A DNA stretch of 64,000 bases, from positions 53,598 through 117,597 of the IMG/VR virus record IMGVR_UViG_3300040856_002888. One strand, written 5' to 3'. The notes under the pieces are model-generated. The model saw only the letters and a program-made list of their open reading frames with translations. It had not been told where the DNA came from and ran no database searches. Below are positions 8,709 through 42,779 of the stretch, piece after piece (position 1 is the stretch's first letter; the number at the start of each line of letters is the position of its first letter). Source of the DNA: a virus. Lineage: Duplodnaviria > Caudoviricetes. The translations under genes and the position numbers were made by a program.

Positions 8709-8813
8709 ATGCGTGACGGTAAAAACTTGGCTATTTGGTTATTGTGCATGTTTATTATATACATATTAATTTGGTCAGCAGAAATTGCTTTACACGTACC
8801 TGATCTAAACTAA
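8709..8813 (+). CDS. 34-aa putative single-pass membrane peptide
   Basis: MRDGKNLAIWLLCMFIIYILIWSAEIALHVPDLN; weak SD. Confidence 0.4.
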   Translation: MRDGKNLAIWLLCMFIIYILIWSAEIALHVPDLN

Positions 8814-8814
8814 T

Positions 8815-9112
8815 AACGATGACGCTGAACAAAAGCTGAACTTGGACGCCGGTTCGATTCCGGCCACCTCCACCACACATTTTTCAACATACGGGGGTGT
8901 TCAGGTATTCGACAAGCAGTAAGTAGGGATGCTGAGTTATCCGGAGCAAGCTCGGTTAATGCAAGAAACTTTTATAAGTGCAAACGAAAATTTTGTACCT
9001 GGAGCATTTACTTCATTAGACATGTCAATGGCTAGTGAAGGTGAATTACTCGCAGCCTAATACGTTGTGAACTCCGCGGCATAGTCCACCGGGCAACAGA
9101 ACGGACTATCCC
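8815..9112 (+). ncRNA. ssrA: Circularly permuted (two-piece) tmRNA; outer ends approximate
   Basis: T-arm plus acceptor 3' half ...GGTTCGATTCCGGCCACCTCCACCA (ends 8875) precedes the 5' half GGGGGTG..ATTCGAC (from 8893); G3-U70 pair; tag ORF 8980-9060 ANENFVPGAFTSLDMSMASEGELLAA*. Confidence 0.92.
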
Positions 9113-27014: not shown

Positions 27015-27090
<76 letters not shown>

Positions 27091-40035: not shown

Positions 40036-40239
40036 TTGGGAACATTTAAAGAATTTTTGCTTGAAACAACTGGCAAAAACTATAGTCACGAACTAAACAC
40101 TCTTTTGAAGATTTGTAAATTACAACAGAGTTTACTGAAAGAGGTTAGCAATGAATGGAATCCAGACGTGCAATCTAAGATTGCCGAAATTGATAAAGCA
40201 ATTGTCAGCTTAGAAAATTTTACAAAAGTAAAAGAATGA
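40036..40239 (+). CDS. Hypothetical protein
   Basis: SD AAGGAG; coupled to the next gene. Confidence 0.5.
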   Translation: MGTFKEFLLETTGKNYSHELNTLLKICKLQQSLLKEVSNEWNPDVQSKIAEIDKAIVSLENFTKVKE

Positions 40240-40616
40240 CAGAAAAAGTAAATCATCCTAAGCACTATAATAATCACCCAAGTGGTGTAGAAGCAATTGA
40301 TGTTATACAATATATGAATTTTTGTTTAGGTAATGCATTTAAGTATGTATACCGTTACAAAGACAAGAACGGCATAGAAGACCTTAAAAAGGCAGTATGG
40401 TATTTAGAAAAACAAAAAACAGCTATGCTAAAAGCACATCTTGCAATTACACACACAGGTACTAATGATTTTTACAGGATTTTGCATCACGAGCCTGATA
40501 CCGATATCGCTAATGTTTTAGAAATTATATATTCGGTATCGTTCCATGATAAACCGTTTAAACTGCTAGATGAAGCTGTAGAAATATTAAAAAAGAAGTT
40601 GACAAACCCAGAATAA
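40236..40616 (+). CDS. DUF3310 (SaV-like) protein
   Basis: VNHPKHY, EAID, GNAFKY..R..KNG.EDL.KA.WYL. Confidence 0.88.
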   Translation: MTEKVNHPKHYNNHPSGVEAIDVIQYMNFCLGNAFKYVYRYKDKNGIEDLKKAVWYLEKQKTAMLKAHLAITHTGTNDFYRILHHEPDTDIANVLEIIYSVSFHDKPFKLLDEAVEILKKKLTNPE

Positions 40617-40626
40617 CTGTTATACT
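40599..40626 (+). promoter_or_regulatory. sigma70-type promoter for the coiled-coil gene plus ncRNA unit
   Basis: TTGACA-16 nt-TATACT with TG extended -10. Confidence 0.7.
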
Positions 40627-40653
40627 AAACGAATAACACACACAAGGAGCCTT

Positions 40654-41238
40654 ATGCAAATTTCACTTCGTAAAGCTAACACAATCCAAAACGAGATTGC
40701 TAACTACATCGTCAATGGCTTTGACAGCATTGATCGCTCAGTTGATGCTATCCTAGTTGACGATTGGCAAGGAGTGACCGCACGTCTTGAACAAGAACAC
40801 GCAGAGCAGGTTGCAGAGCGTCGGGAACTGATTGGTGCCCGTTGGACGATTAGGAATATGATCGCAGAGGCTAATCATCATGCTGGTATTAACAAGCTGA
40901 TGGGACATATCGCTAGCGATGACTATGAAGTCAGCATGCTAGAGAATGCCCTGCATCACTGTGATGTACAGCAAGACGCTGCAATCTACGAAAGAAAGAT
41001 TGAGCTGAAGCGCAAAGATATGGAAAAGACTGAGCGCAGCCCTTATCAGCGTGACAACGTTGAGATTCCTGTGTTTACAAAACCATATCGCAAAAACATT
41101 GAGCGTGAGATCGCTACGCTGAAAAAGCAGATCAATCGCTACAAAGATCTACTGCTAGAGAAAAATATCACTACCAAAGTGACACTGACCGAAAATTTGG
41201 TTGACTTGCTCGCCAAGTACAATCTTATTGACGCTTAG
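40654..41238 (+). CDS. Helical coiled-coil protein of unknown function linked to a downstream structured RNA
   Basis: SD AAGGAG; MQISLRKAN..Q..I, I..AN..AGI, L...N...V pattern; visibly GC-richer than neighbours. Confidence 0.75.
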   Translation: MQISLRKANTIQNEIANYIVNGFDSIDRSVDAILVDDWQGVTARLEQEHAEQVAERRELIGARWTIRNMIAEANHHAGINKLMGHIASDDYEVSMLENALHHCDVQQDAAIYERKIELKRKDMEKTERSPYQRDNVEIPVFTKPYRKNIEREIATLKKQINRYKDLLLEKNITTKVTLTENLVDLLAKYNLIDA

Positions 41239-41245
41239 TGTCCAA

Positions 41246-41445
41246 GGATGGGGAGTAAGCAAAAACGTTGCTGTTCGCAGTAACACATCCAACTACGGTG
41301 TTGTCACCACCTCATGGAATTACATGTTCCCTGCACTGCCGGATTTTTGTTTTTTGTTAGGTCGCCGGTGCCTATTTGCTACAGGGGTATAATTCTTGTA
41401 ATTTGTCGGTTGTAGTTTGTGATTTGTCCTGCTTATTGTCCATCC
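41246..41445 (+). ncRNA. Candidate ~200-nt structured ncRNA with 7-nt periodic TTGT units
   Basis: Terminal stem GGATGGGGAGTAAGCA/TGCTTATTGTCCATCC; hairpin GTTGCTG-TTCG-CAGTAAC; GGTG/CACC, GGAA/TTCC and TAGG/CCTA hairpins. Confidence 0.65.
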
Positions 41446-41492
41446 TACCCCTCACCTTAACACTCTCCTAACACTTCATTAAGTAAATACCA

Positions 41493-41801
41493 ATGAGAAC
41501 TCTAATAGTAATACTAACAGCAGTTCTAATAGCTTCATCAGTTTCGGCTGACAACAAGACTGATAATTTATCTGTGTCATTTGAAACTGAAGAAGAATTT
41601 GTCGAACATCTAATTAACAAGAGCATAGATCTATATGCTCCTAAGCGGATGGTTGACATAGGGTTGAGGAACTTGTTCTATGATGATCAAATCTCAATCA
41701 CAGTAAATCTGAAGGACGCCCAGATTAAACTTTACGCCCCGTTTGGCGTTGTAGATGAAAAATACGACGGGACATTATTAACAATTGAGTATCGATTTTA
41801 G
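41493..41801 (+). CDS. Secreted hypothetical protein
   Basis: Signal peptide; C-terminal YRF. Confidence 0.55.
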   Translation: MRTLIVILTAVLIASSVSADNKTDNLSVSFETEEEFVEHLINKSIDLYAPKRMVDIGLRNLFYDDQISITVNLKDAQIKLYAPFGVVDEKYDGTLLTIEYRF

Positions 41802-41810
41802 GAGAGACTA

Positions 41811-42779
41811 ATGGATGCAACATTACTCTATACAGTAGTCGGTTTTACACTCGCTGCTTATTCAGTTATAGCTAACGACTCGGTCCAGACGCTAGGAACT
41901 TGGATAGCAAGTAATTCTGATCGCTTTAAATGGTATATAATGTGGGCTGCGAGTAGCTCAGTATTATTGTTTACACTATGGTATGGCTGGTACATTAACG
42001 GTGGTGACATATCTTATGGAAGGCTAGAAAAAATCCCATATCAAACAATCCAGTGGTATCATGCTGTAGCACCTCTTGTGTTAGTTGCACTAACAAGATT
42101 TGGTGTTCCGGTTAGTACTACATTCCTTGTGCTAAGTGCTTTTGCAAGTACAGTAGTCCTAGAGAAGGTTTTGCTTAAATCTGCAATGGGCTATATTGTA
42201 GCGGCTGCAAGTGCTTACATAATATGGATGGTAGTATCAAAATATTGGGAAACAAAAACTGACATTCCAGAAAGCCACGACAAATGGTGGCGTGTAGCAC
42301 AATGGTGTACTACTGGATGGTTATGGTATACTTGGCTAAGTCACGACATGGCTAATATTGCTGTATTCCTTCCTAGACAAATTCCTACTGACACAATGAT
42401 TTTAATCAGCCTAGTGTTTGTAGCAGGACTAGCTTACATGTTTTACGAAAAAGGTGGTAGGATACAAGAAGTTGTATTAAGCAAGACAAATACGAAATAT
42501 GTCCGTTCGGCGACACTTGTTGATCTTATCTACAGTATTATCTTATGGTACTTTAAAGGATACAATAGTATTCCAATGAGTACAACGTGGGTATTTGTAG
42601 GATTGTTAGCAGGTAGAGAACTGGCGTTTGCTACTATCAATGATAAGTATAAATTTAAAACTGTATTTCCTCTAGTAGGAAGAGACTTTTTTAAAATGAT
42701 GATCGGACTTGCATTAAGCGTAGCAATTGTACTAGCAATACATGGATTTGCATTTAGTGGATTTGCAAATTTAGATTGA
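41811..42779 (+). CDS. PiT/PHO4-family inorganic phosphate transporter-like protein
   Basis: Multiple TMs; duplicated AND.../HDMAN and PVSTT/PMSTT signatures. Confidence 0.72.
   Translation: MDATLLYTVVGFTLAAYSVIANDSVQTLGTWIASNSDRFKWYIMWAASSSVLLFTLWYGWYINGGDISYGRLEKIPYQTIQWYHAVAPLVLVALTRFGVPVSTTFLVLSAFASTVVLEKVLLKSAMGYIVAAASAYIIWMVVSKYWETKTDIPESHDKWWRVAQWCTTGWLWYTWLSHDMANIAVFLPRQIPTDTMILISLVFVAGLAYMFYEKGGRIQEVVLSKTNTKYVRSATLVDLIYSIILWYFKGYNSIPMSTTWVFVGLLAGRELAFATINDKYKFKTVFPLVGRDFFKMMIGLALSVAIVLAIHGFAFSGFANLD

What the first reader, a model, noticed from the sequence alone, without database searches (positions are those of the whole stretch)
40599..41460. Coiled-coil protein plus ~200-nt structured RNA with heptad TTGT repeats: candidate undescribed ribonucleoprotein system
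Seen: a stand-alone unit with its own sigma70 promoter and a strong SD. It encodes a 194-aa helical protein and looks GC-richer than its neighbours. Just 7 nt after the stop begins a long non-coding gap, rare in this densely packed genome. The ends of the gap pair (41246-41261 with 41430-41445, including G-U pairs). Inside are a UUCG-capped hairpin (41267-41284), small stems (41297-41308 with a TTGT loop, 41316-41330, 41358-41374) and a possible long-range CCCTG/CAGGG pair (41329-41333/41382-41386). TTGT occurs at 41396, 41403, 41410, 41417 and 41424 (exact 7-nt period), at 41347 and 41354 (also 7 nt apart) and at 41436, with TTGC at 41376; the spacer bases vary. Inference: a conserved 4-mer with variable spacers on a fixed period suggests one site per subunit of an oligomeric ring or filament protein (compare TRAP, Hfq), probably the upstream product. 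It could be an RNA-templated assembly, a toxin-antitoxin-like pair or a sponge. The N-terminus loosely recalls DIP1984-like coiled-coil proteins (from memory, unverified).
Basis: partly seen in the sequence, partly recalled or inferred. Interest (0 to 1): 0.88.

Follow-up and report, generated by a model that had tools for sequence, protein, structure and literature searches.

The report
Phage UG-heptad RNA with partner protein
The "empty" 250 bases behind this small helical-protein gene encode a folded RNA with UG marks exactly seven bases apart, and this RNA travels with that protein gene in many large phages, so the two probably work together in a way nobody has yet described.

Summary
Window 41243-41447 is a real non-coding RNA. 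Its two ends pair, it has several hairpins, and it carries five UUGU units at exact 7-nt spacing (0 of 100 shuffles match).

It matches no Rfam family. The 194-aa protein upstream matches no Pfam, NCBIfam or PADLOC family.

The protein belongs to a large family, with 416 cluster representatives. A covariance model of the RNA found it beside the gene in 28 of 28 related loci searched. It lies either upstream or downstream of the gene. Five of five large phage records hold one RNA and one gene.

By eye, the same layout occurs in Caulobacter and Brevundimonas jumbo phages.

Covariation is strong in the freshwater subgroup (19 of 36 pairs). It is not significant in the window's own subgroup. Metatranscriptome contigs cover the RNA.

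A homodimer is predicted for the protein (0.64 against 0.00 for controls). Protein-RNA binding is inferred, not shown. The ring or filament idea is untested.

Earlier notes of this scan describe the same kind of pair on other DNA. I found no publication describing it.

The parts
40599..40626 (+). sigma-70-type promoter TTGACA-16-TATACT (with upstream TG) of the protein gene
   Evidence: 11 of 12 positions match. The same hexamers stand before the L003 homolog (read). This is a consensus match only; no transcription start was mapped.
40644..40649 (+). Shine-Dalgarno AAGGAG, 4 nt before the ATG
   Evidence: Read directly.
40654..41238 (+). 194-aa all-helical protein, partner of the RNA. Conserved residues are L5 R6 K7 A8, R67, N74, D165 and N171.
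   Evidence: - ORF.
- Family of 416 cluster representatives at E<=1e-3.
- AF2 model with pLDDT 95.9.
- No Pfam, PHROG function, NCBIfam or PADLOC family.
- Predicted homodimer, 0.64 against best control 0.00.
- Conservation and pI.
41243..41447 (+). the non-coding RNA (about 205 nt), bounds as matched by the covariance models
   Evidence: - Model R1: 252 bits.
- Model R2, built on freshwater relatives, matches the same bounds at E 0.097 in the large search and E 0.00013 in a 501-nt search.
- No Rfam match.
- Metatranscriptome contigs cover it.
41246..41260 (+). P1, 5' strand of the closing stem (GGAUGGGGAGUAAGC)
   Evidence: It pairs with 41431-41445 in the MFE fold and RNAalifold. The equivalent stem covaries in the freshwater set and in the Caulobacter/Brevundimonas set.
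41267..41284 (+). P2 hairpin with UUCG loop
   Evidence: A hairpin stands at the same place in L003, Colossus and Kabachok, with a UUCG or UCCG loop. The P2 helix covaries in A8: 5 of 6 pairs.
41290..41296 (+). 'box' CAACUAC, tentatively paired (P4') with 41412-41419 inside the heptad array
   Evidence: RNAalifold proposes it. By eye, complementary pairs of different sequence occur in Colossus, Kabachok and Kikimora. It is not compensated within the marine set: 4 of 7 pairs depart only by unpaired cells. Tentative.
41297..41308 (+). P3 hairpin GGUG-UUGU-CACC
   Evidence: GGU/ACC in the window type corresponds to GGC/GCC in the L003 type (by eye).
41329..41386 (+). P4 (41329-33 with 41382-86) enclosing P5 (41338-42 with 41365-69). 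The P5 loop carries two more heptad-spaced UUGU, at 41347 and 41354.
   Evidence: P4 is invariant in 10 of 10 marine sequences. The equivalent P4 and P5 covary in the freshwater set: 5 of 6 and 3 of 4 pairs. R2 aligns its P4 to these bases.
41396..41430 (+). array of five UUGU units at exact 7-nt period, between the P4 domain and the 3' strand of P1
   Evidence: Family-wide, 35 of 39 RNAs have chains of 4-7 UG at period 7.
41431..41445 (+). P1, 3' strand (GCUUAUUGUCCAUCC)
   Evidence: One RNA-library contig ends at 41442 in adapter letters (table 7). This is only a weak hint of a 3' end.

Best explanation
This is a two-gene phage module made of a stable, folded non-coding RNA of about 205 nt and a dedicated helical protein of about 190 aa.

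The RNA layout.
- The two ends of the RNA pair (P1).
- Inside are hairpins P2 and P3 and a P4-P5 domain.
- Between that domain and the 3' strand of P1 lies a stretch of five YUGY units, each exactly 7 nt from the next. I expect this stretch to be mostly single-stranded.

Proposed mechanism.
- The protein probably acts as a parallel homodimer.
- Its invariant polar residues (R6, K7, R67, N74, D165, N171) probably cluster at one tip. This is inferred from the secondary structure, not measured on the model.
- It most likely docks on the repeat units, one unit per 7 nt, so that the RNA templates a small ribonucleoprotein particle.
- In the window, the RNA is probably cut out of the 3' end of the gene's transcript. 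In most relatives it has its own promoter.

Shown: the RNA, its fold, its repeats, its presence in RNA libraries and its strict linkage to the gene.

Inferred: the physical binding, the stoichiometry, and any link to tRNA or translation. That link rests only on the module sitting in tRNA islands in relatives.
For: (1) Linkage from the protein side.
- Model R2 finds the RNA at E<=2.1e-19 within about 1.1 kb of the gene in 28 of 28 family-gene loci searched from the protein-first set.
- 14 of the 42 loci were not searched with R2. Two are the window-type contigs; the other 12 I took for near-duplicates.

(2) Linkage from the RNA side.
- The repeat-first scan gave 118 loci.
- Its three strong R2 matches, L124, L120 and L069, all carry the family gene next to the RNA.
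- A fourth locus, L063, has the gene and six units, but R2 gives only E 0.097.

(3) Five of five phage records of 129-343 kb hold exactly one RNA and one gene, adjacent. The window's own record has one RNA.

(4) The order varies.
- The RNA is upstream in 23 and downstream in 5 of the 28 loci.
- In the window, L003, L024, L063, L120 and the seven cultured phages read, it lies directly downstream.

(5) The upstream form has its own consensus promoter, so the RNA is a gene and not a leader (read).

(6) Structure.
- A8: 97.8% of cells paired. 19 of 36 pairs changed on both sides, against 7.7 +/- 1.7 in shuffles (0 of 500 reach it) and 2-6 in slid controls.
- A6 (Caulobacter/Brevundimonas): 18 of 44 predicted pairs are compensatory.

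(7) The repeat consensus is Y(0.90)-U(1.0)-G(1.0)-Y(0.90)-NNN over 176 units, with U and G fixed by the way chains were chosen. It holds across RNAs of 26-61% G+C.

(8) RNA-library contigs from four runs cover the RNA.
- In X16 the contig over 41196-41379 has depth 289.8, against 6.77 for the ORF contig.
- In X19 the figures are 22.7 against 7.9.

(9) Homodimer score 0.64 against best control 0.00. That mark was reached by 20 of 30 proteins solved as pairs of one chain and 1 of 23 solved as single chains. Runs agree in at least 93% of contacts, and partner pLDDT is at least 85.
Against: - No call tests protein-RNA binding.
- The protein family is mildly acidic: median pI 5.86, net charge -2, window protein pI 5.90. 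It has no recognisable RNA-binding domain.
- Within the window's own marine subgroup, covariation is not significant. Two pairs changed on both sides, reached by 37 of 500 shuffles, and the covariation score equals the shuffled mean.
- The tie between the window RNA and the well-supported freshwater family rests on three things: weak cross-model scores (R2 on the window E 0.097; R1 on L049 E 0.0033 and on L013 E 0.019), shared motifs read by eye, and the shared partner gene.
- R2 does not detect the five Brevundimonas phage RNAs, even with filters off for the three tested, nor the L003-type RNAs. Their membership is by hand.
- Four of 39 RNAs have UG chains of only 2-3.
- Fold energies are only modestly better than shuffles.
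- In run X18 the RNA contig is shallower than the ORF contig (2.7 against 14). The tool also warns that contig depth is a poor measure and that DNA can be present in RNA libraries.
- Part of the array may be base-paired with the 5' box rather than free.
Confidence: 0.5

Rival explanations
1. Decoy or sponge. The heptad array captures a conserved host factor, such as a single-strand RNA-binding protein or a tRNA anticodon loop. The phage protein helps in some other way (folding, stabilising, delivering) or binds elsewhere on the RNA, for example the conserved P1 internal loop.
For: - The YUGY unit is kept across phages of very different hosts and G+C (26-61%). That fits a universally conserved target as well as it fits the phage protein.
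- The protein is acidic.
- UGY is the cysteine codon pair, and in relatives the module sits among tRNA genes. That reading is my own inference and is untested.
- High contig depth in one RNA library fits an abundant titrating RNA.
Against: - No host factor is identified.
- Strict one-to-one linkage with the phage protein is not needed for a simple sponge.
- No known sponge motif (GGA, ARN) is present, as read. The motif knowledge is recalled.
Confidence: 0.22
2. Toxin-antitoxin-like or anti-defence pair. The RNA neutralises or regulates the protein, or a host defence nuclease, in the manner of type III systems.
For: An RNA with short repeats stands next to a small protein gene, often in the order RNA then gene with a promoter between them. 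That order is the one recalled for toxI-toxN.
Against: - Zero of 7 family members match any of 5027 PADLOC models.
- The repeats are 7 nt inside a complex fold, not tandem units of about 36 nt (recalled).
- The fold is a helical bundle with no nuclease-like match.
- The module is single-copy in lytic-type jumbo phages, and no instance turned up in the prokaryote species genomes with the one motif scan that I could run.
Confidence: 0.08
3. Cis-acting element of the gene's own mRNA: a 3' stabiliser or processing site in the window, a leader in relatives.
For: - In the window the RNA starts 7 nt after the stop codon, and I found no good promoter inside the end of the ORF.
- One RNA-library contig spans the ORF and the RNA together (X13, 40428-41442).
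Against: - The order of RNA and gene varies.
- In relatives the RNA has its own consensus promoter. A second promoter, whose -35 lies in the RNA's 3' strand, drives the next gene (read).
- In L015 an RNA polymerase omega homolog lies between RNA and gene.
- In L012, L027, L028 and L030 another RNA lies between them.
Confidence: 0.07
4. An RNA-only machine or assembly, like the ornate phage-associated RNAs GOLLD and ROOL. The neighbouring gene would be merely syntenic.
For: - GOLLD lies 1.5-2.5 kb upstream in L015, L028 and L036.
- These phages pack many structured RNAs together.
- RNA-only cages are reported for GOLLD and ROOL. I saw only the search listing and the start of the abstract of 10.1101/2024.12.08.627333.
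Against: Synteny alone would not survive to 23% protein identity, through changes of order, and into phages without tRNA islands such as the window.
Confidence: 0.05

Closest known systems
HutP with the hut leader RNA, and TRAP with the trp leader (Bacillus)
   Same: Short conserved motifs with variable spacers recur on a fixed short period and are read one per subunit by an oligomeric protein. As I recall, HutP sites are also 7 nt apart. This is the best model for how the array might work.
   Different: - Those motifs are NAG triplets in mRNA leaders that control termination.
- Here the unit is YUGY inside a free-standing folded RNA with paired ends.
- The protein is an all-helical predicted dimer with no Pfam match to TRAP or HutP.
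- No regulated downstream gene is evident.
Ro60 with Y RNA, including phage-encoded pairs
   Same: A phage-encoded non-coding RNA whose 5' and 3' ends form a long stem, encoded next to its protein partner. CcrColossus is cited as carrying a Ro60 homolog and Y-like RNA (PMC12135203, passages read).
   Different: - There is no TROVE gene in the window's record, which is 53% complete.
- There is no Rfam Y-RNA match.
- The partner here is a 190-aa helical protein, not a HEAT-repeat ring.
OLE RNA with OapA/OapB (recalled)
   Same: A large structured bacterial RNA of unknown chemistry with dedicated partner proteins encoded beside it.
   Different: It is an unrelated sequence in other organisms with a membrane-protein partner. 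Nothing here was tested against it beyond the Rfam scans.
GOLLD and ROOL RNAs of phages
   Same: Ornate structured RNAs of unknown function in large phages, next to tRNA genes. GOLLD is present in three related loci.
   Different: They are separate genes 1.5-2.5 kb away and much larger. No partner protein is known for them (recalled), and they have no heptad array.
RAGATH-27 motif (Rfam RF03100) and DUF6847/DIP1984 (PF20935, PDB 3KDQ)
   Same: Earlier notes of this scan name them as the only catalogued pieces of related heptad-RNA and protein pairs on other DNA.
   Different: - Here there is no RF03100 match at E<=10.
- PF20935 matched 0 of 56 members at E<=0.01 and nothing in CcrColossus or T5.
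- 3kdq is only a weak fold tie.

Membership tests
Any Rfam 15 family | Match to a covariance model | tested here: not met
   - Window at gathering threshold: only tmRNA and tRNA elsewhere in the window.
- 41150-41550 at E<=10: 0 matches.
- 13 related loci at gathering threshold: only tRNA, tRNA-Sec and GOLLD, none at the RNA sites.
- L028, L050, L024 at E<=1 and L052, L053 at E<=1: nothing at the RNA sites.
RAGATH-27 (RF03100) | Match to the 86-position model | tested here: not met
   There is no match at E<=10 in 41150-41550. The lead came from earlier notes.
Y RNA / Ro60 RNP | TROVE-domain protein encoded in the genome | tested here: inconclusive
   PF05731 is absent from the own record, but that record is only 53% complete.
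Y RNA / Ro60 RNP | Y-RNA or YrlA covariance model match | tested here: not met
   No Rfam match.
TRAP / HutP-type attenuation systems | Protein of the TRAP or HutP family | tested here: not met
   Pfam scans of the window protein and of 56 members give no such family.
TRAP / HutP-type attenuation systems | NAG triplet repeats in an mRNA leader with alternative terminator | tested here: not met
   The units are YUGY. The scan found no terminator-like site in the RNA. The RNA lies behind the gene in the window.
DUF6847 / DIP1984 (PF20935) | Match to the Pfam model | tested here: not met
   Zero of 56 members at E<=0.01. There is no match in the CcrColossus record at E<=1.
DUF6847 / DIP1984 (PF20935) | Same fold as PDB 3KDQ | tested here: inconclusive
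   - Foldseek: E 0.72, probability 0.75, TM 0.43/0.52.
- VIA-align: Z 8.9, rmsd 8.1 over 144 residues, tied with generic helical hairpins.
- Atlas: a rank-8 cluster at score 0.91 in which 19% of members carry PF20935.
Type III toxin-antitoxin / known defence systems | Protein matches a defence-system model | tested here: not met
   Zero of 7 members match PADLOC at E<=0.01.
The UG-heptad RNA family defined here (models R1, R2) | Closing stem, P2, P4-P5 domain, then at least 4 UG at 7-nt period, next to the family gene | tested here: met
   - R1 gives 252 bits.
- R2 matches the same bounds at E 0.097 and 0.00013.
- There are five units.
- The family gene is adjacent.

The most novel reading that the evidence does not exclude
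A widespread, uncatalogued phage ribonucleoprotein particle. Dimers of a new helical protein line up on a 7-nt-register UG array of a dedicated folded RNA, giving an RNA-templated protein assembly. Its position among tRNA genes in relatives suggests it acts on tRNAs, the translation apparatus or RNA turnover of the infected cell.
Probability: 0.3. Interest if true: 0.9.

Novelty: categorically new. Interest (0 to 1): 0.8.

Why it matters
Large tRNA-rich phages appear to carry, as a fixed pair, an RNA and a protein that belong to no described family.

- The pair reaches from marine and freshwater uncultivated phages to Caulobacter phages CcrColossus and CcrPW and to Brevundimonas phages.
- CcrColossus and CcrPW grow on Caulobacter crescentus, which I recall is genetically tractable, so the question can be tested at the bench.
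- If the two form a particle, it would add a new kind of phage RNP beside Ro60-Y RNA.
- It would also add a new way of reading RNA: a 4-mer every 7 nt.
- It could explain part of the "dark" non-coding islands of jumbo phages, where GOLLD and a second unmatched RNA lie nearby.
- Even if binding fails, a new conserved structured RNA class with more than 35 distinct members is a useful addition to RNA catalogues and phage annotation.

Tried and rejected
Searches that found nothing useful.
- DNA similarity to 50,697 phage records: no match.
- The core-motif scan of viral contigs gave 4 stretches. Two are the known relatives and two are chance hits inside coding sequence.
- Fold searches of the AF2 model. 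Foldseek against PDB gave nothing at E<=0.001. VIA-align wide gave only generic helical hairpins at Z 8.4-9.8. PDB by sequence gave best E 0.061. BFVD returned only uncharacterised viral proteins.
- NCBIfam and Pfam over 56 members gave only scattered single-member hits.

Prokaryote genomes.
- A two-motif pattern found 0 stretches.
- A one-motif pattern found 9 stretches. None is the RNA by R2 with filters off; best E is 0.17, at another place.
- This is one strict motif, so it is no proof of absence.

Phage T5. Earlier notes name T5 as a carrier of related pairs. Three quick tests did not reproduce that:
- PF20935, no match;
- profile A2, no match at E<=10;
- seven UG at period 7, no match.
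These tests do not refute the notes, since another unit or a distant protein could be missed.

Other items.
- A second RNA seen behind the gene in relatives ('class A') was sought in the own record by pattern and not found.
- The box-to-array pairing (P4') stays tentative.
- I considered hammerhead, kink-turn, sarcin-ricin-like, RNase P, 6S and tmRNA readings of the conserved P1 internal loop. I dropped them on reading the sequence against recalled consensus motifs and on the empty Rfam scans. None was tested further.
- No RNA-library contig of the four runs laid covers 41480-42070. Contigs of X16 and X18 stop at 41379/41380. I draw no conclusion from missing cover.

Literature searches for a prior description.
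- Terms 'CcrColossus, RNA'.
- 'GOLLD, phage, tRNA, novel RNA'.
- 'structured RNA, covariation, bacteriophage, novel RNA motif, tRNA genes'.
- 'DUF6847, DIP1984, RAGATH-27'.
- Heptad and 7-nt repeat terms.
None returned a description of this RNA or protein.
Of that paper I read the outline, the abstract and sections 2.3 and 2.4.
Full report
**What is in the window.** The window is part of an uncultivated virus record of 117.6 kb, estimated 53% complete.
- At 40599-40626 stands a near-consensus promoter, followed by AAGGAG and a 194-aa ORF at 40654-41238.
- This unit is richer in G+C than its surroundings.
- After the stop come 254 nt without a sensible ORF.
These are the end pairing, the UUCG hairpin, the GGUG/CACC hairpin, the CCCUG/CAGGG pair and the TTGT positions.
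- Five TTGY at a 7-nt period occur once in 64 kb and in none of 100 shuffles. They occur nowhere else in the record.
- Rfam has nothing for the gap, even at E<=10.

**The protein.**
- It matches no family in Pfam, PHROGs (by function), NCBIfam or PADLOC.
- It has 416 cluster representatives at E<=1e-3 in a 1.84-billion-protein library. Of the 150 listed, nearly all are about 185-200 aa and aligned end to end.
- Invariant or near-invariant residues are L5, R6, K7, A8, R67, N74, D165 and N171.
- The AF2 model is confident (pLDDT 95.9). It shows a long helical bundle whose first and last short strands meet.
- Fold searches give only uncharacterised viral proteins, including one of Caulobacter phage CcrColossus, and generic helical hits.
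- A homodimer is predicted: 0.64 against 0.00 for the best of three controls. That mark was reached by 20 of 30 proteins solved as pairs of one chain and 1 of 23 solved as single chains. The three runs share at least 93% of contacts, and partner pLDDT is at least 85. This supports pairing but does not show it.
- The family is mildly acidic, with median pI 5.86.

**The RNA in close relatives.**
- A 50%-identical homolog (L003) is followed by the same RNA. The ends, the box CCAACUAC, CCCUG/CAGGG and UUGUUAGGU are kept, and again there are five TTGY units with different spacers. Two tRNA genes follow.
- Twelve metagenome loci add population variants of both types.
- By eye, P5 changes from GCCGG/CCGGU to GCUAG/CUAGC, and P3 from GGU/ACC to GGC/GCC.
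- The formal count on the model-made alignment of ten marine sequences is not significant. Two pairs changed on both sides, which 37 of 500 shuffles reach, and the covariation score equals the shuffled mean. I report this as a limit of the window's own subgroup.

**The RNA in distant relatives.**
- A protein-first scan of viral contigs gave 42 loci.
- A model built on the marine RNAs (R1) gave weak full-length matches just upstream of the gene in L049, L013, L015 and L023.
- Reading those stretches showed a clearly related RNA. It has a long closing stem with a conserved internal loop, a hairpin, a P4-P5 domain and UG units at period 7.
- Fourteen such RNAs align well. RNAalifold predicts 36 pairs.
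- In the count, 97.8% of cells pair. 19 pairs changed on both sides, against 7.7 +/- 1.7 in shuffles (0 of 500) and 2-6 when partners are slid.
- The model built on them (R2) then found the RNA at E<=2.1e-19 in 28 of 28 family-gene loci searched. It is upstream of the gene in 23 and downstream in 5. Fourteen of the 42 loci were not searched with R2.
- R2 also matched:
  - L124, L120 and L069;
  - CcrPW at 3e-5 and CcrColossus at 9e-5;
  - the window at exactly the R1 bounds, at E 0.097 in the large search and 0.00013 in a 501-nt search.
- R2 did not match the L003-type RNAs or the Brevundimonas phage RNAs.
Only four carry the family gene. These four include all three strong R2 matches.
- In five large records there is one RNA and one gene each, side by side.

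**Cultured phages.**
- Homologs at 23-33% identity exist in Caulobacter phages CcrColossus and CcrPW and in seven Brevundimonas phages.
- In all seven records that I opened, the gene is followed by an unannotated gap of 284-314 nt.
- The gaps show a covarying closing stem, with 18 of 44 predicted pairs compensatory. They also show a UNCG-capped hairpin and five or six units at period 7. The units are UUGY in the Caulobacter phages and KUGC or GUGM in the Brevundimonas phages.

**Repeat statistics.**
- Over 39 RNAs of 26-61% G+C, 35 have chains of 4-7 UG at period 7. Four have only 2-3.
- The unit is Y-U-G-Y-N-N-N.
- Many freshwater members have a hairpin inserted in the array.

**Expression.**
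- Six RNA-library runs hold part of the stretch.
- Contigs of the four runs laid cover the RNA. Contig depths are:

| Run | RNA contig | ORF contig |
|---|---|---|
| X16 | 289.8 (41196-41379) | 6.77 |
| X19 | 6.5-22.7 | 7.9 |
| X18 | 2.7 | 14 |
| X13 | one contig of depth 58.9 over 40428-41442, ending in adapter letters | same contig |

- Contigs cannot give strand, ends or level, and DNA may be present in such libraries. This shows presence in RNA libraries and hints at accumulation, no more.

**Gene or cis element.**
- In the upstream form the RNA has its own consensus promoter.
- The UUGACC of its 3' strand serves as the -35 of a second TTGACC-17-TATAAT promoter for the next gene (read).
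- In L015 that next gene is an RNA polymerase omega homolog (PF01192, E 4.4e-11).
- In four loci a different structured RNA without an Rfam match lies between gene and RNA.
- A leader or 3'-UTR role for the partner gene therefore fits poorly.

**Reading.**
- The firm result is a new, conserved, structured phage RNA locked to a new protein family.
- That they bind each other, with the array as a multi-site platform for protein dimers, is the most economical reading, but it is an inference.
- A host factor or tRNA as the target of the array is the main rival. My note that UGY is the cysteine codon pair is speculation.

**Prior knowledge.**
- Five literature searches found no description.
- A 2023 catalogue of viral candidate RNAs may list it in supplements that I could not open.
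- Earlier notes of this scan describe the same kind of pair on other genomes, one of them naming Caulobacter phages.
- Their leads to RAGATH-27, DUF6847 and phage T5 were not reproduced here.

Noticed in passing
window 8731-9110: A permuted (two-piece) tmRNA gene is encoded by this phage: RF04321 at 88.4 bits over 8813-9060, and alpha_tmRNA at 52.2 bits. ARAGORN did not call it.
   Followed up: no
window 27015-27090: A single tRNA-Thr (anticodon UGU) is the only tRNA in the window. The RNA-protein module here is therefore not inside a tRNA island, unlike in most relatives.
   Followed up: no
L012, L015, L027, L028, L030, L036, L037, L045, L049, L050, directly after the stop codon of the family gene: A second structured-looking RNA of about 230-450 nt ('class A') follows the family gene and is followed by tRNAs. 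It has conserved blocks and a variable insert in a terminal hairpin. It has no Rfam match at gathering threshold, nor at E<=1 in L028 and L050. It is absent from the own record by pattern.
   Followed up: partly
L015 490-952, L028 55-518, L036 390-851: GOLLD RNAs (197-215 bits), each with an embedded tRNA, lie 1.5-2.5 kb upstream of the family gene. tRNA arrays lie between.
   Followed up: no
L015 2275-2517 (similar ORFs seen by eye in L023 and L050): A phage-encoded homolog of RNA polymerase subunit omega (PF01192, E 4.4e-11, 43.1 bits against cut-off 26) sits between the heptad RNA and the family gene.
   Followed up: partly
L029, L050, L015, at the 3' end of the RNA: The conserved UUGACC of the RNA's 3' closing strand is also the -35 hexamer of a TTGACC-17-TATAAT promoter for the next gene. 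One stretch is thus both RNA stem and promoter (read).
   Followed up: no
window 40236-40616: The gene just upstream encodes a DUF3310 protein (E 3.6e-17). Its PHROG matches are annotated as nucleotide kinase.
   Followed up: no
window 41493-42779 and L003 5178-6463: A 102-aa protein with a signal-like N-terminus and a 322-aa multi-pass membrane protein follow the module in both phages. The membrane protein has a weak PHO4 match (E 0.0013, below cut-off). In L003 they are separated from the module by two tRNAs and a 351-aa lipoprotein-like gene.
   Followed up: no
L003 551-2949: The two genes upstream of the homolog in L003 look, by eye, like adenylosuccinate synthetase and a PurT-like ATP-grasp enzyme. 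This fits the purine-pathway note made on this window. They were not scanned.
   Followed up: no
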